Virus record (IMG/VR): IMGVR_UViG_3300025645_000098
Location: 1-53,681 of that record
Length of the DNA: 53,681 nucleotides
Direction: 5' to 3' (one strand)
From: a virus
Taxonomy: Duplodnaviria > Caudoviricetes
Numbering within the stretch: position 1 is the stretch's first letter; the number at the start of each line of letters is the position of its first letter. A program made the position numbers and the translations under genes. Below, piece by piece: positions 2,966 through 37,658 of the stretch. The notes under the pieces were generated by a model. That model was not told where the DNA came from. It worked only from the letters and a program-made list of their open reading frames with translations, and ran no database searches.

Positions 2966-3493
2966 ATGAAAAAAGTATTAAGTACATTAATTTTATTTTT
3001 AAGTTTTGTTGCGATAGCGCAAGAAGATTTAACATTATCAGAAGATTTAACTGTGACTAATGGTCAAGAGTTATCTTACAACACACTTGATTTAAATGGA
3101 TTCGATTTAGAATTAAGAAATAACTCAAGTTTAACAGTCGTTAACTTATTAGGACCAGGTAACGTATCAACAATTTCAAACGGTAATACGGGTAATAACG
3201 CTCAACCAATATTGAATGTTACTGGATATCTTGATTGCGAAAATTTAACATTTGAAGGCCAACAAGCATATTCTTCTGATAGTCAATTTACACCTTGTGT
3301 CAGTCTTAGTATAAATCAACCAAATTTAGATATACGTGAATTACCAATGGGTCTATCTTATAAAGTAATTTCACTTTCAGGTCAAAAAAACATAAGTGGT
3401 ATTACTGATTTAAATACAATTAACCAATTGCCTAGAAATCAAATTTTTATATTAAAAGTTGAGGGGTTTAAAGCAGTTAAGGTCATATATTAA
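2966..3493 (+). CDS. Secreted protein with T9SS-like C-terminal domain
   Basis: Signal peptide MKKVLSTLILFLSFVAIA-Q; C-terminus YKVISLSGQ...IFILKVEGFKAVKVIY. Confidence 0.6.
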   Translation: MKKVLSTLILFLSFVAIAQEDLTLSEDLTVTNGQELSYNTLDLNGFDLELRNNSSLTVVNLLGPGNVSTISNGNTGNNAQPILNVTGYLDCENLTFEGQQAYSSDSQFTPCVSLSINQPNLDIRELPMGLSYKVISLSGQKNISGITDLNTINQLPRNQIFILKVEGFKAVKVIY

Positions 3494-5533: not shown

Positions 5534-6826
5534 ATGAGTAATGATATAATAGAAGTAGATTCGTTTCATGAAGATGGGTTCTGGGATGAAGATGAATTTA
5601 CAATAAATGATTATAAGACTAAGATTCAGTTTTATACTGAAACTAATAAACCAGTCTTAGCTATATTCTTTGATTTTTTTAATAAATTAAATCATAAAAG
5701 AGCGCATGAAGATACACCAACAGTAGATGGTATTACCATTAAAGGTATTTTAGATAGTGATAATAGTTTCATGAATAATCTACCTGAATATCCACCAATT
5801 ACTTTTACTTATTCGGTGATATTAGATTTTAATGGAATTTTATTATCAATAGTAATGATGGCATTTAAAGAAAATGGGTCTATTCGTAATGTAATTAGAA
5901 TGACAAGTTTGAATGAAGAAATCGTTAAGTCTGGTGATATTTATGAAGCATTATTCAAATTAGCTGTAGATAACTCAAAATTAAAGGGGAGTTATATGAA
6001 AATTGAAGATGAAGCCTTGTTATGGCAGATTAGAAGTTTAAAAGATGTTACATTTGATGATGTGTATCTTCCAGAACGTATGACTGAAGACCTCTCAATG
6101 TATGTTAAACTATTTGAGAATAAGAAAATTCTACAACGTTATATGTTTAGTGGTGTACCAGGTACAGCTAAAACAGAATCGACTAGAGCAATTACAAACA
6201 TTCTTAATAAACAAGGTGTTACCATAATTAAAACAAATATTTGTAAAATCATCAAGCAAAAATTTGATTTAGCTAAAATATTAGCACCGTGTGTTGTAAT
6301 ATTAGATGATATTGATTTATATCTTGGTGATAGAAATTCAACTGGTGTAAGTCCATTATTAGGAGCTTTCTTAGATATTTTAGATGGTATTGATAAATTA
6401 CCTGATGATGTTGGTGTTATTGCTAGTACAAACGCACCACACTTGATTGATTTAGCGGCACAACGACCAGGTAGATTTAATAAAGTTTTATTCTTTGATG
6501 AATTAACTTCTGATAATATTGTGAATATTATTAAAAAATCATTAACTAGTATGAATGAGAAACATAATAATGTAAGTGAAAAAGATATTAAAATATTGAC
6601 CGATAGTAAATTGGTTGATTTCTTTAAAGAAAAGGGGTTAACTGGTGCATTTATATTCGAAGCTGTGCAAGACATTAAGCATAAATCAGAAACTTTAGAA
6701 AGGGAAATAGATTTAGTTAAAACAATCGCTGAAATATCACAAAGTAATGATACTTTAGATAAGAAATTGAAGATTATGACAATAGATAATAAATTAAAAA
6801 AGGTTGCTAATAGAATTGGATATTAA
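5534..6826 (+). CDS. AAA+ ATPase
   Basis: Walker A variant GVPGTAKT, Walker B VILDDID, sensor ASTN, AQRPGRF second region of homology. Confidence 0.88.
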   Translation: MSNDIIEVDSFHEDGFWDEDEFTINDYKTKIQFYTETNKPVLAIFFDFFNKLNHKRAHEDTPTVDGITIKGILDSDNSFMNNLPEYPPITFTYSVILDFNGILLSIVMMAFKENGSIRNVIRMTSLNEEIVKSGDIYEALFKLAVDNSKLKGSYMKIEDEALLWQIRSLKDVTFDDVYLPERMTEDLSMYVKLFENKKILQRYMFSGVPGTAKTESTRAITNILNKQGVTIIKTNICKIIKQKFDLAKILAPCVVILDDIDLYLGDRNSTGVSPLLGAFLDILDGIDKLPDDVGVIASTNAPHLIDLAAQRPGRFNKVLFFDELTSDNIVNIIKKSLTSMNEKHNNVSEKDIKILTDSKLVDFFKEKGLTGAFIFEAVQDIKHKSETLEREIDLVKTIAEISQSNDTLDKKLKIMTIDNKLKKVANRIGY

Positions 6827-10411: not shown

Positions 10412-11206
10412 ATGAAAAATCTATTTAAATTAAGAGGTGAATTATCTAGAAAAACTGAGACCATAATTGGTTTAAGTGGTTTAGCTATCATCTTATTAAC
10501 TTGGTATGTGCTTACGAGTAGTGGTATGGTAGCAAAATCTATTTTACCAAATCCAATTGACGTTCTTAAATCTTTTAAAACATTACACTTTGATAAGTTT
10601 TTAGTTAAGAATACACTTTATTCATTAAAACTTAATTACTTAGGCTATATTGAAGCTGTTTTAATTGCAGTTCCATTAGGATTTACAATCGGTTTAATAC
10701 CGTTTTTTAGAGCGTTACTTTCTAAGTACGTAGATTCTAGTCGATTTATTCCATTAACCGCTCTAACGGGCTTATTTATAGCTTGGTTCGGTATATATGA
10801 TAATATGAAGGTGCAGTTTTTAGCATTTGGTATATTTGTTTACTTATTACCAATCGTTGTTCAAAGAATTAGCGAAGTTGATAAAGTATATGTACAAGCC
10901 GCTCAAACTTTAGGTGGTAGTAAATGGCAAATCATTAAGCATATATTTGTACCCGCAGTTCTTAGTAAACTATTTGATGATATTAAAGTTATTGTTGCTA
11001 TTTCTTGGACCTATATTATTATTGCAGAAATGCTTAATAGTACAGGTGGAATTGGTGCCATGATATTTAAATCAGCTAGACAAAGTAGAACTGAAGAAGT
11101 ATTTGCCTTGTTAATAGTAATTGTATTGATTGGTATAGTACAAGATAGGTTATTTACTTGGACTGATAAAATATTATTTCCACATAAACATTTAAAGAAA
11201 GCATAA
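10412..11206 (+). CDS. ABC transporter permease (SsuC/TauC-like)
   Basis: Six TM segments; EAA-like motif QAAQTLGGSKWQI; WTYIIIAE. Confidence 0.9.
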   Translation: MKNLFKLRGELSRKTETIIGLSGLAIILLTWYVLTSSGMVAKSILPNPIDVLKSFKTLHFDKFLVKNTLYSLKLNYLGYIEAVLIAVPLGFTIGLIPFFRALLSKYVDSSRFIPLTALTGLFIAWFGIYDNMKVQFLAFGIFVYLLPIVVQRISEVDKVYVQAAQTLGGSKWQIIKHIFVPAVLSKLFDDIKVIVAISWTYIIIAEMLNSTGGIGAMIFKSARQSRTEEVFALLIVIVLIGIVQDRLFTWTDKILFPHKHLKKA

Positions 11207-19657: not shown

Positions 19658-20472
19658 GGGGTGCTTATGCTCCTGTCTCTTCGGAGACTAAGATAAATCC
19701 AGCAATGGTATTTAAAGTGATGTCTATACAAGGCATTGCGTTATTGAGACTTCGGTTTTAGTAATCTATGTAAGCATATTGACTACGGGAAAGCATCAAG
19801 GGTCGACTGACTTAGATGACAAACCCACTTCCTAGCTTCGGGAAGTTGAGATAGAAATATCAATAGATGGTTAATAGATTTTGGTTGAAACGTGTAAAAA
19901 GCGGATAGGCTGATTTCATCATAATTTGTTATGGAATGTTCAATGTGACACTTCTTTAAGCTCTACTGGAAACAGTACCTTAAAAAGTTAACTGAGGTAA
20001 ATCTAAGTAATGAAGAAATGACGTGACTGTAAAAAGTTACAACGGGGTGTTGTAAGCTACACTGGTCCAAAGCCAGCACGCTTGTCAATCGCAAGACGCA
20101 TCCTGTAAGAGAGAGCATCGCTATTCTATGGTTGGTTAATAGCCAACGTTTTTAATGTAATAAAAATCAGAAAAGTAAAAGTTCTTGCGACCATGGATAC
20201 AAAATTAAGTTATGCTGCTGTAATATGTAGCTAGTGAAAGCTCACAAGGCTGAAACTAAAACGAAAAATAGGTATCGTTAGTAAGAGGGTAGTGCCTTTT
20301 CATCCTCACAAGGGAGCTAGGTAGTGAAATTGGTTTATATCAGTTCATGGTAAAAGAGTTCGCAGTCACTATAAGACTGTCTTAATAATGTCTACCAGAA
20401 CGAAAGTCGAGGTGTGTGCGCTAGGGAAACCAGATGTAAAATGATATTAATAACGCCCAACACTCAAGCGTT
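19658..20472 (+). ncRNA. Large structured RNA, ~815 nt, GOLLD-like candidate
   Basis: ORF-free and less AT-rich; many UUCG/GNRA-capped hairpins (GTCTC-TTCG-GAGAC, GATA-GAAA-TATC, TACTG-GAAA-CAGTA); next to tRNA-like elements. Confidence 0.65.
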
Positions 20473-24458: not shown

Positions 24459-24532
24459 GCAGATGACGCATAAGTGGTGGTGCGCCAGCCTTCCAAGCTG
24501 GAATAGACTCGGTTCGATTCCGAGTATCTGCA
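24459..24532 (+). tRNA. tRNA-Gly(TCC)
   Basis: GCAGATG/TATCTGC acceptor; CCAGC-CTTCCAA-GCTGG. Confidence 0.9.
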
Positions 24533-24543
24533 CTTTAGAATAA

Positions 24544-31800: not shown

Positions 31801-31918
31801 GTTTATTAATAATATTGGTCGTGTTATGGTAGTAGAAATTCAAGAACATTATTATATAATATTGAGTGGTGATAGAGGTCACCCAATACATGCAGAATCA
31901 TGTCCTAAACTACATTAA
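28877..31918 (+). other. Run of small co-oriented hypothetical genes (28877, 29458, 29863, 30218, 30513, 30813, 31290, 31652)
   Basis: Tightly packed ORFs with no recognisable motifs; 31652 has a lipobox (MASC). Confidence 0.65.
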
Positions 31919-32175
31919 AAAATAAGTCAGAGAATCTAACGCTTGGGTATAACTTGATTATACCCAAGAGGAAGTTCAGGACATCTCTCTGAGATGTGGA
32001 AGTTGAGAGACGTTATACCACAGCAACATGGGATGCAACACAAATTTCTTAGCAAGAGACTCAGATTGCGATAATAGATTGGTAGTGGCACCAGCATGAA
32101 AAACTGGATGAATCATAAGGTTCATAGTTAAATGTTAGAATAGAACAAAATCTTGGCTAAGCTCAACTTATTTTT
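31919..32175 (+). ncRNA. rnpB: Compact RNase P RNA
   Basis: P1 AAATAAGT/ACTTATTT; P2 TCTAAC/GTTAGA; P3 hairpin; GAGGAAGTTCAGG and ACAAAATCTTGGCTAA P4 strands; GATGCAACACAAAT. Confidence 0.75.
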
Positions 32176-32202: not shown

Positions 32203-32976
32203 ATGAATAAATTATACGGAGCAATATTAGGTGACCTAGCGGGTATGCCTTATGAAAAGAAGTTCAATCTTAAGTTGGAAGATATTAAGATACACCCAGA
32301 CAATGCAGTTGTAACTGATGATACTATCATGACGTTAGCGGCAGCATCTAAGTTGGTTAAGAATACTAGCTACGATGTGGAATATAGAATCTGGGGTAAT
32401 GAATACTTCAGTGACTATTACGGTAAGTCATTTAAAGAGTGGCTTAAGGATGATGAAATGGTTGTAGATTCATATGGTAACGGTTGTTTAATGAGGATGT
32501 CACCAGTACCATATGCTTATAGAGGTGATAAGATTAATAGTTCAATAGAAGCTCTTAAAAGTACTGCATCATCACACACAAATCTACATTCTAGGTTTAG
32601 TAGTCAAGTATTGAATGATATATATCATATGATATTTGAAAACTATAAGAAAGAAGAAATTCATGATTGGATTGATTTTTATTATCCATTTCCACCTACC
32701 TTTCAACCATTTAAAGAGATTGATGCAACTGCACAAGGTACATTACCTTTTGTGTTATATGTATTTTTATCAACTGATTCAACCCATGAAGCAATATTAA
32801 AAGCCATTTCATTTGGTGGTGATACTGATACCAACGCATCTATTGTTGGTGAGTTATCTAATGCTTACTATAATGATTTAACTCAAGAAGATATTGAGTA
32901 TGTGGAATCACATTTGGACTTACGTCAATTGGAAATGTTACACGAATTTAATAAATATACGAAGGTAAAGGTATGA
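32203..32976 (+). CDS. ADP-ribosylglycohydrolase (DraG/ARH family)
   Basis: GAILGDLAG, TDDT, SYGNGCLMR, GGDTDTNASIVG. Confidence 0.92.
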   Translation: MNKLYGAILGDLAGMPYEKKFNLKLEDIKIHPDNAVVTDDTIMTLAAASKLVKNTSYDVEYRIWGNEYFSDYYGKSFKEWLKDDEMVVDSYGNGCLMRMSPVPYAYRGDKINSSIEALKSTASSHTNLHSRFSSQVLNDIYHMIFENYKKEEIHDWIDFYYPFPPTFQPFKEIDATAQGTLPFVLYVFLSTDSTHEAILKAISFGGDTDTNASIVGELSNAYYNDLTQEDIEYVESHLDLRQLEMLHEFNKYTKVKV

Positions 32977-33404
32977 TTAATTTGTTTAAAGGTGAATATG
33001 CTTGGTTAAGTAACATGATATTGGTTAATGTGAAATACGATGGGATTGAATATCCATCAGTGGAACATGGTTATATGTCAGCCAAATCAGATGATATGGT
33101 TTGGAAAAGTAGATGTGCCGATAAACAAATACCACCAAAACAAATAAAAAAAGAATCTAAGGATATTGATTTAAGAGACGATTGGGATGATGTAAAAATT
33201 GATGTAATGCGAGAATGCCTTAAAGAAAAATTCAATCAAGAACCTTTTAAAACTTTATTAATTAACACTAAAAATCAAGACCTTATTGAAGGTAATTGGT
33301 GGAACGATACCTTTTGGGGTGTCGATATAGTTACAGGTGAAGGTGAGAATAATTTAGGTAAATTAATCATGCAAATAAGATATGAGAATAGAACAAAAGA
33401 ATAA
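32973..33404 (+). CDS. NADAR (YbiA-like) protein
   Basis: LSN, YPSVEH, DWDDVK, KFNQ, LIEGNWWNDTFWG, GENNLGKLIMQIR. Confidence 0.92.
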   Translation: MINLFKGEYAWLSNMILVNVKYDGIEYPSVEHGYMSAKSDDMVWKSRCADKQIPPKQIKKESKDIDLRDDWDDVKIDVMRECLKEKFNQEPFKTLLINTKNQDLIEGNWWNDTFWGVDIVTGEGENNLGKLIMQIRYENRTKE

Positions 33405-36764: not shown

Positions 36765-37658
36765 ATGAAAGACGCATTAGGAAATAGAATGAAAGAATAT
36801 GAAGCTGTAACTAAGTATAAGTTGCTTCGTAGAGGTTACACCATGATTAGAATCGATGGTAAAGCCTTTCATACTTATACCAAGGGGCTTGAGAGACCGT
36901 TTGACCAAGGTTTGGTTGATGATATGGATGATACTGCAAAATATCTTTGTAAGAACATTCAAGGGGCTGTATGTGCGTTTGTACAATCTGATGAAATTAG
37001 CATATTAGTTACTGATTTCGAAAAAGTTGAAACCAGTGCTTGGTTTGATAATAATATTCAAAAGATGTGTAGCGTATCAGCTTCAATGGCAACAGCTAAA
37101 TTTAATCAATTAAGGGTTATACGGTCATTACAAAAAAATGCATCACCATCTAATTATGATGATTGGAAACAAGTTAGGGTTTTAAATCTAGCTATGTTCG
37201 ATTCCAGAGTATTTCAAGTTCCTAATAAAATGGAATGTACTAATGTATTAATTTGGAGACAACAAGATACGGTTAAGAATAGCATTTCAAGTGTTGCTCA
37301 ATCTATGTTTTCACACAAAGAATTGAATGGTAAGAATAGCAATCAGAAACAAGAAATGATGTTTCAAAAGGATGGTACTAATTGGAATGATTTCGACCCT
37401 AAATTAAAGAGAGGTAGAATGATTGTTAAAGAGACATATGAAAAAGAACCAGGTGTATTTAGAACACAATGGGTTAGTGTGGCTCCACCAACATTTACAC
37501 AAGAACGAGAGTATTTGATTAGTTTAATCCCTGATAGGGATATAGAGTTAACATCACCAATTAATTTTATACCAAAAGATTTAACAAAGGAAGAAATTGA
37601 AAATTTGATTAAATCATTAAAATCTCAAATGAAAAATACAAGTAATTTATTAACATGA
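36765..37658 (+). CDS. tRNA-His guanylyltransferase (Thg1-like)
   Basis: RIDGKAFHTYT, QSDEIS, FDSR, WRQQD. Confidence 0.93.
   Translation: MKDALGNRMKEYEAVTKYKLLRRGYTMIRIDGKAFHTYTKGLERPFDQGLVDDMDDTAKYLCKNIQGAVCAFVQSDEISILVTDFEKVETSAWFDNNIQKMCSVSASMATAKFNQLRVIRSLQKNASPSNYDDWKQVRVLNLAMFDSRVFQVPNKMECTNVLIWRQQDTVKNSISSVAQSMFSHKELNGKNSNQKQEMMFQKDGTNWNDFDPKLKRGRMIVKETYEKEPGVFRTQWVSVAPPTFTQEREYLISLIPDRDIELTSPINFIPKDLTKEEIENLIKSLKSQMKNTSNLLT

What the first reader, a model, noticed from the sequence alone, without database searches (positions are those of the whole stretch)
31919..32175. Phage RNase P RNA with an almost deleted specificity domain
Seen: recognisable P1-P5 and both P4 strands within ~255 nt, but only ~46 nt between the P5 strands (CATC...GATG) where the S-domain normally lies. 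Known: the S-domain reads the tRNA T-loop/elbow, and S-domain-less RNase P RNAs exist in some archaea. Inference: a minimal ribozyme with relaxed specificity, suited to the non-canonical T loops of the tRNA-like RNAs in this window.
Basis: partly seen in the sequence, partly recalled or inferred. Interest (0 to 1): 0.75.

Follow-up and report, generated by a model that had tools for sequence, protein, structure and literature searches.

The report
Phage RNase P RNA lacking specificity domain
This large phage carries a shrunken copy of the RNA enzyme that trims transfer-RNA precursors, keeping the catalytic half and almost none of the half that normally recognises the tRNA elbow, and the same mini-gene occurs unannotated in many other large phages.

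Summary
Window 31918-32175 (+) is a conserved, structured RNA with the catalytic-domain architecture of RNase P RNA: P1-P3, the P4 pseudoknot with a bulged U, P5, a P6 pseudoknot, and P15-P17 with a GGU loop. Only 46 nt lie between the P5 strands, against 164 nt in E. coli. Rfam gives a full-length sub-threshold hit (RNaseP_bact_b, 32.3 bits, gathering score 97, E 5.6e-7). I found 18 distinct full-length homologs, nearly all on contigs held in virus or phage collections, several of 150-735 kb. One is an unannotated gap in the cultured Stenotrophomonas phage DLP_6. Covariation is strong: P2 and P4 pair fully in 18 of 18, and P6 is found in 16 of 17. Each of 9 genomes searched has one copy. In 7 of 19 loci the element abuts a tRNA gene. 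None of five carrier genomes encodes RnpA or a canonical RNase P RNA. One metatranscriptome contig covers exactly 31920-32168 joined head to tail, which indicates a discrete and possibly circular 249-nt RNA. The most likely function is a minimal RNase P ribozyme that uses host RnpA on phage pre-tRNAs; activity is untested. I found no prior description.

The parts
31919..31927 (+). P1 5' strand (AAAAUAAGU); 31918 can add a tenth pair. The metatranscriptome contig starts at 31920.
   Evidence: Pairs with 32166-32174. P1 of at least 6 bp at matching offsets in 18 of 18 members, with different sequences. Contig joint.
31930..31932 (+). P1b 5' strand GAG, pairing with CUC at 32162-32164
   Evidence: Invariant GAG/CUC in the 8 sequences of A2. 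It never varies there, so it says nothing either way. It is absent in the L049 sub-type (by eye).
31935..31940 (+). P2 5' strand UCUAAC
   Evidence: 6 of 6 pairs with 32134-32139. P2 is found in 18 of 18 members with many different sequences; the shuffle control gives mean 0.245 and maximum 2 of 18. 5 of 6 pairs covary in A2.
31942..31968 (+). P3 hairpin: 11 bp with loop CUUGA
   Evidence: 100% of cells paired in A2, and 4 of 7 counted pairs change on both sides. Length varies from 3 to 11 bp among members.
31968..31981 (+). J3/4 and the P4 5' strand (GAGGAAGUUCAGGA). Pairs are at 31973, 31974 and 31976-31980. One U is bulged; either 31975 or 31976 fits.
   Evidence: 7 of 7 pairs with 32152-32158 in 18 of 18 members. 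Position 9 counted from the G of GAGGAA is U in 18 of 18, the same position as U69 of E. coli M1 RNA. 3 of 7 pairs covary in A2.
31982..31985 (+). P5 5' strand CAUC
   Evidence: Pairs with GAUG at 32032-32035. 100% paired with 2 of 4 pairs covarying in the structure-blind alignment. At least eight different strand pairs are seen in the family.
31988..31993 (+). P6 5' strand UCUGAG (pseudoknot with 32060-32065)
   Evidence: A fixed-position P6 abutting a 3-bp P17 is found in 16 of 17 members; control mean 2.4, maximum 6. All 5 P6 pairs covary in A2. In the window a local hairpin (31982-31987 with 31991-31996) competes with P5 and P6.
31996..32021 (+). Stub hairpin in place of the S-domain: GUGG/CCAC stem, internal loop, 3-bp stem capped by the GNRA-type loop GAGA (32005-32008)
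   Evidence: Hand alignment. The outer stem is 96.9% paired with 3 of 4 pairs covarying in A2. There is nothing resembling P8-P14.
32032..32038 (+). P5 3' strand GAUG followed by J5/15; GCAA is at 32035-32038
   Evidence: GCAA is invariant in A2 and present in all 18 members (by construction of the anchor). It corresponds to G247-C-A248-A249 of E. coli M1 RNA.
32039..32087 (+). P15-P16-P17 module: P15 CAC/GUG (32039-32041 with 32085-32087); P16 (32047-32049 with 32076-32078); P17 (32052-32055 with 32066-32069); P6 3' strand CUCAGA (32060-32065); J16/15 UUGGUA (32079-32084) with GGU at 32081-32083
   Evidence: P15, P16 and P17 are 95-100% paired and all 9 pairs covary in 19 sequences (model-fitted alignment). 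J16/15 is GGGUU or GGGUA in most members, against GGGUa in the Rfam type-A consensus.
32091..32125 (+). Two peripheral hairpins (32091-32107 and 32108-32125, the latter P18-like)
   Evidence: Present in some members and absent in others, such as L119, L125 and L126 copy 2. Where present they are 89-100% paired and all 12 pairs covary.
32126..32139 (+). J18/2 (AGUUAAAUG) running into the P2 3' strand GUUAGA (32134-32139)
   Evidence: AG.UAAAUG is invariant in A2. The type-A consensus is AGAugAAUG.
32145..32164 (+). J2/4 ACAAAAU, the P4 3' strand CUUGGCU (32152-32158), and P1b 3' CUC (32162-32164)
   Evidence: The type-A consensus is ACAGAACCCGGCUUA.
32166..32174 (+). P1 3' strand ACUUAUUUU. The metatranscriptome contig ends at 32168 and is joined back to 31920.

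Best explanation
Window 31918-32175 (+) encodes a minimal RNase P RNA, a member of a previously unannotated family found mainly in large phages. It is probably transcribed with its neighbours and cut out as a discrete RNA of about 249 nt (31920-32168), possibly with its ends ligated. It folds into the RNase P catalytic domain. That fold comprises the P1-P2-P3 stack, the P4 pseudoknot with its bulged U (the metal-binding core), P5, a P6 pseudoknot tying the strand after P5 to the P17 loop, a P15/P16 internal loop carrying GGU (which pairs with the tRNA 3' RCCA in bacterial enzymes), the J5/15 adenosines (the A248 position, which contacts the residue before the cut), and J18/2. The domain that reads the tRNA T-loop/D-loop elbow is replaced by a 26-nt hairpin, so substrates would be recognised only through the acceptor stem, the 3' end and the leader. 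Because carrier genomes encode no RnpA-family protein, the RNA most likely assembles with the host's RnpA and removes 5' leaders from the phage's own pre-tRNAs. Shown here: the sequence, the covarying structure, homology to the RNase P catalytic domain, distribution, copy number and tRNA neighbourhood. Supported by one contig: a discrete expressed RNA. Inferred: catalysis, the protein partner and the substrates.
For: Rfam: a full-length sub-threshold match to RNaseP_bact_b (32.3 bits, E 5.6e-7). Homologs L033 and L043 match RNaseP_arch (46.6 bits, E 4.8e-10; 39.6 bits, E 7.8e-8). Structure-blind MAFFT alignment of 8 sequences: 88.5% of cells paired against 31-43% when partners are slid; 43 pairs changed on both sides against 4-20; 0 of 500 shuffles as high; P4 100% paired; all 5 P6 pairs covary. 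Alignment-free anchors: P1, P2 and P4 complete in 18 of 18 members, with the P2 control at mean 0.245 of 18; P6 next to P17 in 16 of 17, control mean 2.4. 3' half in 19 sequences: 95.8% paired, 21 of 21 pairs covary (model-fitted). The junctions match the Rfam type-A consensus and E. coli M1 RNA: GCAA, AAA(C/U)AG, GGGU(U/A), AGAUAAAUG, ACA.AAU..GGCU, and a U at the U69 position. One copy per genome in 9 of 9 genomes. The element lies within 100 nt of a same-strand tRNA gene in 7 of 19 loci, and inside arrays of about 30-35 tRNAs in L043 and L108. No PF00825 and no RF00010 match in 5 of 5 carrier genomes, three of them at least 95% complete. Run X10 (metatranscriptome) has a single contig on the 1.1-kb stretch; it covers 31920-32168 and is joined head to tail. 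Literature: the E. coli C-domain alone cleaves with and without C5, needs a 'P6-mimic' for efficiency and does not need P18 (abstract of PMC5839562). This matches what is conserved (P6) and what is variable (P18-like hairpins) here. [quoted passage not shown]
Against: No activity data exist. The Rfam score is a third of the gathering score, and two homologs (L119, L123) gave no RNase P hit at E of 1 or less. My 3'-half model does not hit E. coli rnpB at E of 10 or less, so the family is far from cellular RNase P RNAs. P4 has 7 pairs rather than the 8 of E. coli. The window's copy is 7.4 kb from its tRNA cluster, and none of the window's 11 tRNAs encodes the CCA that the GGU loop would bind. 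In the window a local hairpin competes with P5 and P6. The only virus-encoded RNase P-like RNA I found in print, from orthopoxviruses, showed no pre-tRNA processing in vitro (passage of PMC3001073). The expression evidence is one contig at depth 3.7 in one run; in another RNA run a contig (32008-32259) runs across the 3' boundary. No promoter or terminator signal above background (13 found against 12.6 expected).
Confidence: 0.6

Rival explanations
1. An inactive relic or decoy. The RNA keeps the catalytic-domain fold only to bind and sequester, or redirect, the host RnpA protein or another factor, without cutting RNA itself.
For: The orthopoxvirus RNase P-like RNA is expressed but inactive in vitro (passage of PMC3001073). 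Carriers encode no RnpA, so the RNA must meet the host protein if it meets any. The score against curated RNase P models is low.
Against: A decoy has no need for the substrate-contacting elements. Yet GCAA (the A248 position), the GGU-bearing J16/15 loop and the U at the U69 position are kept in all or nearly all members across wide divergence (36-58% GC over the 3' half). Placement inside tRNA arrays, often flush with a tRNA end, fits a processing enzyme better than a sponge.
Confidence: 0.15
2. An active ribozyme with a changed job. Without the T-loop reader it may cut non-tRNA targets, such as phage polycistronic transcripts, the GOLLD-like or tmRNA-like RNAs found near tRNA arrays, or host RNAs, rather than ordinary pre-tRNAs.
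For: The S-domain is missing in all members, and bacterial RNase P is known to process non-tRNA substrates (passage of PMC4919922). The window holds a GOLLD-like RNA and L108 holds a tmRNA. The host enzyme should already handle standard phage pre-tRNAs. The window's copy lies away from the tRNA cluster.
Against: The tRNA neighbourhood is the only recurrent context (7 of 19 loci abutting a tRNA). Retention of the RCCA-pairing loop points to tRNA-like acceptor ends. No candidate alternative substrate is conserved next to the element: the flanking ORFs compared between the window and L119 are unrelated.
Confidence: 0.15
3. Not related to RNase P: an unrelated structured phage RNA, or chance resemblance.
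For: All Rfam matches are below the gathering scores. The structure model was derived from these same sequences.
Against: Three different members hit RNase P models full-length at E values from 5.6e-7 to 4.8e-10. The order of helices, both pseudoknots, the bulged U and five junction motifs coincide with the type-A consensus. Covariation rules out a non-structured sequence.
Confidence: 0.03

Closest known systems
Bacterial type A RNase P RNA (Rfam RF00010; E. coli M1 RNA)
   Same: Same order of P1, P2, P3, P4 pseudoknot, P5, P6 pseudoknot, P15-P16-P17 and (in some members) P18. Same junction motifs: GAGGAA, GCAA, AAA.AG, GGGU., AGAU.AAUG, ACA.AA...GGCU. A bulged U at the same distance from GAGGAA. 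One carrier infects a gammaproteobacterium, Stenotrophomonas.
   Different: P7-P14 are replaced by a short hairpin: 41-46 nt between the P5 strands in 11 of 17 members, against 164 nt in E. coli. P4 has 7 pairs, not 8. Total length is about 205-260 nt in the short forms against 377 nt. There is no RF00010 match at E of 1 or less in the 5 carrier genomes. It is carried by phages rather than cells.
Archaeal type T (type P) minimal RNase P RNA of Thermoproteaceae/Pyrobaculum (Lai et al. 2010, as cited in PMC7191817 and PMC4919922)
   Same: A natural RNase P RNA that keeps the catalytic domain and lacks nearly the whole specificity domain, including CR-II and CR-III (passages).
   Different: It belongs to a cellular, archaeal lineage and works with several archaeal proteins. 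The phage family has the bacterial-style GGU loop and P6, and the best clan matches were bact_b and arch, not RNaseP-T. The S-domain loss is probably independent.
Engineered E. coli C-domain ribozyme (Eco CP RPR; PMC5839562, abstract)
   Same: [quoted passage not shown] Its efficiency depends on a P6-like interaction, and P18 is dispensable. This is the same set of parts that is conserved or optional in the phage family.
   Different: It is a laboratory construct with reduced efficiency. The phage RNAs are natural, have a capped stub hairpin, and are untested.
Orthopoxvirus (camelpox) RNase P-like RNA (passage of PMC3001073)
   Same: A virus-encoded RNA with partial secondary-structure similarity to RNase P RNA.
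   Different: It comes from a eukaryotic virus, is reported as inactive in pre-tRNA processing, and has no tRNA-array context. I did not compare the sequences.
Bacterial type B RNase P RNA (Rfam RF00011)
   Same: It is the best Rfam match for the window's copy, and there are two hairpins between P15 and P2 as with P15.1 and P18.
   Different: Type B lacks P6, P16 and P17, which the family has. P19 is absent, and the P5.1 assignment in the Rfam alignment conflicts with the covarying P6. That type B lacks P6/P16/P17 is recalled knowledge, not from a call.

Membership tests
RNase P RNA (Rfam clan CL00002) | Score at or above a curated family gathering threshold | tested here: not met
   The window scores 32.3 bits against a gathering score of 97 (RF00011) and has no hit in gathering mode. 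L033 scores 46.6 and L043 39.6 against 84 (RF00373). L119 and L123 have no RNase P hit at E of 1 or less.
RNase P RNA (Rfam clan CL00002) | P4 long-range helix between the GAGGAA region (CR-I) and the ACA..GGCU region (CR-V), with a bulged U | tested here: met
   7 of 7 pairs in 18 of 18 members. U at position 9 from the G of GAGGAA in 18 of 18, as for U69 in E. coli. 3 of 7 pairs covary.
RNase P RNA (Rfam clan CL00002) | Core helices P1, P2, P3, P5 and P15 in the canonical order | tested here: met
   all are present and all covary.
RNase P RNA (Rfam clan CL00002) | Specificity domain (P7-P12 with CR-II and CR-III) that reads the tRNA elbow | tested here: not met
   46 nt between the P5 strands in the window, folding as one 26-nt hairpin. 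The Rfam alignment skips the S-domain positions.
RNase P RNA (Rfam clan CL00002) | Endonucleolytic removal of pre-tRNA 5' leaders | not testable with these tools
   This needs a cleavage assay or in vivo mapping of 5' ends.
Bacterial type A RNase P RNA | P6 pseudoknot between the strand after P5 and the P17 loop | tested here: met
   Found in 16 of 17 members at a fixed position, against a control mean of 2.4 and maximum of 6. All 5 pairs covary in the structure-blind alignment.
Bacterial type A RNase P RNA | P15/P16 internal loop with GGU on the 3' side | tested here: met
   J16/15 is GGGUU, GGGUA, GGGUG, UGGUA or AGGUUG in 17 of 17 members. The type-A consensus is GGGUa.
Bacterial type A RNase P RNA | Partnership with an RnpA (C5) protein | not testable with these tools
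   No PF00825 match in the window or in 5 carrier genomes. Use of the host protein is inferred.
Archaeal type T minimal RNase P RNA (RF02357) | Best match to the type T model and an archaeal (Thermoproteaceae) host | tested here: not met
   Within the clan the best matches were bact_b and arch. The carriers are phages, one of them infecting Stenotrophomonas.
Bacterial type B RNase P RNA | P5.1, P10.1, P15.1 and P19 present; P6, P16 and P17 absent | tested here: not met
   P6, P16 and P17 are present and covary. The P19 positions are deleted in the Rfam alignment. The list of defining helices is recalled and partly confirmed by a passage of PMC7191817.

The most novel reading that the evidence does not exclude
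Large phages across many habitats carry their own class of RNase P ribozyme. It is derived from type A, has lost the specificity domain, is single-copy, sits in or near tRNA arrays, and borrows the host's RnpA. This would let the phage mature its own tRNAs without the host rnpB RNA. The RNA may be circularised in vivo. It is also mobile: a cassette of a mini RNase P RNA plus a GIY-YIG homing endonuclease has invaded and is replacing a resident copy in related phages.
Probability: 0.45. Interest if true: 0.9.

Novelty: new variant of a known kind. Interest (0 to 1): 0.85.

Why it matters
RNase P RNA is treated as a universal cellular ribozyme. In six library searches I found no report of a phage-encoded one. 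The only natural S-domain-less form described in the papers I read is confined to one archaeal family. A bacterial-style minimal version that is widespread in phages would be a natural experiment on how little RNA is needed for RNase P function. It would show that phages take over tRNA 5' maturation as well as tRNA supply, and it would explain unannotated gaps in phage tRNA arrays. Current models miss the family entirely at gathering thresholds. Because a cultured phage (DLP_6) carries a copy, the function can be tested directly. The nested copy with a homing endonuclease and the possible circular form raise further questions about ribozyme gene mobility and stability.

Tried and rejected
Rfam at gathering thresholds on the whole window gave tRNAs only.

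BLAST of the window's region and of the L123 element against GenBank phages found nothing.

Exact-motif scans:
- The 15-mer GAGGAAGTTCAGGAC gave 117 or more loci.
- My first regex screen kept none of them and wrongly discarded nine that model R1 later recovered.
- Two other motif scans added only the chance matches L120 and L122.

MAFFT misaligned the window's P7-P17 and P1. I report the counts on that alignment as they stand, so they are conservative.

A free-position shuffle control for P6 was uninformative: 8-82% of shuffles did as well. I replaced it with a fixed-position test.

Script faults:
- picked the wrong GGGUUUCC (fixed).
- One search stopped at L048 and used a wrong P4 3' anchor for L049, L020 and L080 (fixed).
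- One search stopped at L033 (fixed).

Promoter and terminator scans around the element were at background.

RtcB was absent from 5 of 5 genomes. The RNA ligase family PF09414 was found in only 2 of 5 and not in the window fragment. A phage ligase therefore cannot be tied to the head-to-tail joint.

Parts of the 1.1-kb stretch without cover in runs X9, X10, X13 and X7 are not evidence of anything.

The weak ToxI-like match at 32407-32433 (E 0.69) and the snoRNA and miRNA matches are noise.

The flanking ORFs I compared between the window and L119 are unrelated, so there is no conserved protein partner next to the gene. L130's record was not held, so its copy number is unknown.

Supplementary tables of the DLP6 paper (tRNA and CDS lists) could not be seen and might annotate the gap differently; the GenBank record shows no feature there.

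I did not test protein binding. Complex prediction does not take RNA.

Full report
**What is in the window**

The window is a 53.7-kb fragment of an uncultured virus record, estimated at 15% complete, which points to a phage of roughly 350 kb. All long ORFs are on the + strand. It carries 11 tRNA genes. It also encodes NAD-salvage genes, a Thg1-like tRNA-His guanylyltransferase, and an ADP-ribosylglycohydrolase followed by a NADAR protein.

The finding lies in the 285-nt gap between a stop codon at 31916-31918 and the ADP-ribosylglycohydrolase start at 32203. The gap has no + strand ORF of 30 aa or more.

**Checking the observation**

Rfam at gathering thresholds reports no RNase P in the window. 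A permissive local search aligns the whole RNaseP_bact_b model (positions 1-365) to 31927-32164. The score is 32.3 bits against a gathering score of 97, with E 5.6e-7, and the S-domain positions are skipped.

Exactly 46 nt separate the P5 strands. In E. coli M1 RNA, fetched here, the same interval is 164 nt.

**Finding relatives**

- Synteny with the ADP-ribosylglycohydrolase gave one relative, L119. Its upstream gap holds a shorter copy.
- A loose pattern built from the shared 3' block gave a third member on a 362.5-kb contig.
- In metagenome contigs the same pattern gave nine loci, all true members.
- The same pattern found nothing in 185,579 prokaryote genomes.
- A covariance model of the 3' half (R1) then recovered nine more members among loci I had fetched with an exact P4 15-mer and wrongly dismissed.
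- BLAST with two members found the family in two GenBank records. One is a 735-kb uncultured phage, LR756501.1. The other is the cultured Stenotrophomonas phage vB_SmaS-DLP_6, where the element fills an unannotated 258-nt gap before tRNA-Arg.
- The DLP6 genome paper never mentions RNase P (0 occurrences).

In all I have 18 distinct full-length members, plus one interrupted and one truncated copy.

**Structure**

On a MAFFT alignment made without any structural information (8 sequences), my proposed structure has 88.5% of cells paired, against 31-43% when partners are slid by 1-3 columns. It has 43 pairs with changes on both sides, against 4-20 in the slid controls. None of 500 shuffles reaches any of the five measures.

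| Helix | Result in the 8-sequence alignment |
|---|---|
| P2 | 100% paired, 5 of 6 pairs covary |
| P4 | 100% paired, 3 of 7 pairs covary |
| P5 | 100% paired, 2 of 4 pairs covary |
| P6 | all 5 pairs covary |
| P15 | 100% paired, 3 of 3 pairs covary |

The structure was derived from these same sequences. That inflates the comparison with the slid controls, but it does not affect the count of pairs changed on both sides.

Alignment-free anchor tests on the larger set gave:

| Test | Result | Control |
|---|---|---|
| P1 of at least 6 bp | 18 of 18 | none run |
| P2 with 6 of 6 pairs | 18 of 18 | mean 0.245, maximum 2 |
| P4 with 7 of 7 pairs | 18 of 18 | none run |
| U at the ninth position from the G of GAGGAA, the U69 position of M1 RNA | 18 of 18 | none run |
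| P6 strand right after P5 pairing with the last loop nucleotides next to a 3-bp P17 | 16 of 17 | mean 2.4, maximum 6 |

A model-fitted alignment of the 3' half in 19 sequences is 95.8% paired, and 21 of 21 pairs covary.

**Which kind of RNase P RNA**

Although the window's best Rfam match was type B, the anatomy is type-A-like. The family has the P6 pseudoknot, and its P15-P16-P17 module carries GGU on the 3' side of the internal loop. Its junctions read GCAA, AAA(C/U)AG, GGGU(U/A), AGAUAAAUG and ACA.AAU..GGCU. The type-A consensus reads GCAA, AAAUAG, GGGUa, AGAugAAUG and ACAGAACCCGGCUUA.

Two other members hit the archaeal model full-length, at 46.6 and 39.6 bits with E 4.8e-10 and 7.8e-8. 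From recalled knowledge, the archaeal form resembles the ancestral type A.

The elements that contact the substrate's cleavage site and 3' end are therefore kept. Everything that reads the tRNA elbow is gone.

The region between the P5 strands is 41-46 nt in 11 of 17 members. In the rest it is 56, 80, 92, 102, 125 and 436 nt. In the short forms it is a single hairpin with an internal loop, often capped by a GNRA loop (GAGA in the window).

The two hairpins between P15 and P2 are present in some members and absent in others.

This pattern matches experiments on the E. coli C-domain. That construct is active with and without C5, depends on a P6-like contact, and does not need P18 (abstract of PMC5839562).

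**Context and partners**

- Each of nine genomes searched holds exactly one copy.
- Five carrier genomes have no RnpA-family gene and no canonical type-A RNase P RNA. Three of them are at least 95% complete, including a 362.5-kb genome with terminal repeats. The window fragment has no RnpA either.
- In 7 of 19 loci the element lies within 100 nt of a same-strand tRNA gene. In L076, L033 and L043 it starts a few nucleotides after a tRNA 3' end with encoded CCA. L043 and L108 hold about 30-35 tRNAs.
- The window's own copy is 7.4 kb from its tRNA cluster, and its tRNAs do not encode CCA.

**Expression**

Three metatranscriptome runs hold parts of the region. In run X10 the only contig on the 1.1-kb stretch is 279 nt long. 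Its positions 71-279 lie on 31920-32128 and its positions 1-70 lie on 32099-32168. So 32168 is joined back to 31920, a 249-nt unit, with no mismatch.

The length 279 equals 249 + 30. I read this as a circular path in a k = 31 assembly; the value of k is recalled. The ends fall inside the predicted P1 strands.

This fits a discrete, relatively abundant RNA whose ends are either ligated or joined by reverse-transcriptase template switching. It is one contig at depth 3.7 in one run. In another RNA run a contig (32008-32259) crosses the 3' boundary.

Circular RNase P RNA has been described in some archaea (passage of PMC4238349). An Rnl2-type ligase family is present in two of five genomes checked, and RtcB in none.

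**Interpretation**

I am about 90% confident that this is a true homolog of the RNase P catalytic domain. I am about 60% confident in the full explanation: an active minimal ribozyme that uses host RnpA on phage pre-tRNAs.

The main rivals are an RnpA decoy or inactive relic, as reported for the orthopoxvirus RNase P-like RNA, and a ribozyme redirected to non-tRNA targets.

The trait is family-wide, and the accompanying tRNAs look ordinary.

**Novelty**

Six full-text searches found no phage-encoded RNase P RNA. I also read passages of two RNase P reviews and of the P Finder paper. Minimal type T is described only in Thermoproteaceae. The library lacks most subscription journals, so a report elsewhere cannot be excluded. 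I rate this a new variant of a known kind.

Noticed in passing
L126 (reverse strand; locus about 1420-2150) and L131 (reverse strand; locus about 1886-2870): Nested RNase P-like genes. In L126 a window-like copy is interrupted between its P2 3' strand and its P4 3' strand by about 470 nt. The insert holds a complete second minimal copy and a 41-aa NUMOD3 remnant. In L131 the same second copy is followed by an intact 205-aa GIY-YIG + NUMOD3 homing endonuclease, and the first copy has lost everything from P5 to P18. This looks like a mobile cassette replacing a resident ribozyme gene.
   Followed up: partly
window 31920-32168: A metatranscriptome contig (run X10, 279 nt, depth 3.7) joins 32168 back to 31920. 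This is a 249-nt head-to-tail form of the RNA, either a circular RNA or template switching on an abundant linear RNA.
   Followed up: partly
window 20042-20470 (+): A sub-threshold full-length match to GOLLD RNA (65.9 bits, gathering score 150, E 6.4e-16).
   Followed up: no
L143 2957-3204 (KU682439.2, about 105771-106018): The cultured Stenotrophomonas phage vB_SmaS-DLP_6 has an unannotated family member in the gap between CDS AAY80_165 and tRNA-Arg, inside its 30-tRNA region. R1 scores 52.3 bits, and the 7-bp P6 is GUGAGAA/UUCUCAC.
   Followed up: yes
L144 about 2000-2235 (LR756501.1, about 181300-181540, reverse strand): A 735,411-bp uncultured phage record carries a family member of the L049 sub-type (R1 82.6 bits). 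The record has no annotation at all.
   Followed up: partly
L048 about 6354-6789; L070 about 10730-10860: There are large insertions inside otherwise typical members. L048 (482-kb phage) has 436 nt where the S-domain would be. L070 has about 130 AT-rich nt inside the P16/P17 arm. No Rfam family matched the L048 insert at E of 0.5 or less. Their nature is unknown.
   Followed up: no
L049 5592-5667; L020 1739-1810; L080 2573-2647: ARAGORN calls tRNAs with stop-codon anticodons (CTA, CTA, TTA) in the three loci that carry the L049 sub-type. This hints that these phages recode stop codons.
   Followed up: no
window 36765-37658 and 32203-33404: A Thg1-like tRNA-His guanylyltransferase (PF04446, E 4.2e-29) lies 4.6 kb downstream. 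An ADP-ribosylglycohydrolase and a NADAR protein directly follow the RNA gene. NAMPT, NUDIX and PRPP-synthetase genes lie further on. A 5'-end-adding enzyme beside a minimal 5'-end-cutting ribozyme may not be coincidence, but I did not test it.
   Followed up: no
window tRNA genes (14-87 to 24459-24533): None of the 11 tRNA genes encodes a 3' CCA. By contrast the tRNAs directly upstream of the element in L076, L033 and L043 do.
   Followed up: partly
L108 (record flagged provirus, 152.6 kb, element about 3190-3450 reverse strand): A high-GC (58%) member sits in a run of about 35 tRNA genes plus a tmRNA (49 bits). Its P15-P18 region looks closer to canonical type A, and P6 was not found by my fixed-position rule.
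   Followed up: partly
L123 2528-2600 (reverse strand): A tRNA gene starts about 6 nt after the 3' strand of the element's P1. Processing of the tRNA 5' end would therefore also define the 3' end of the ribozyme.
   Followed up: no
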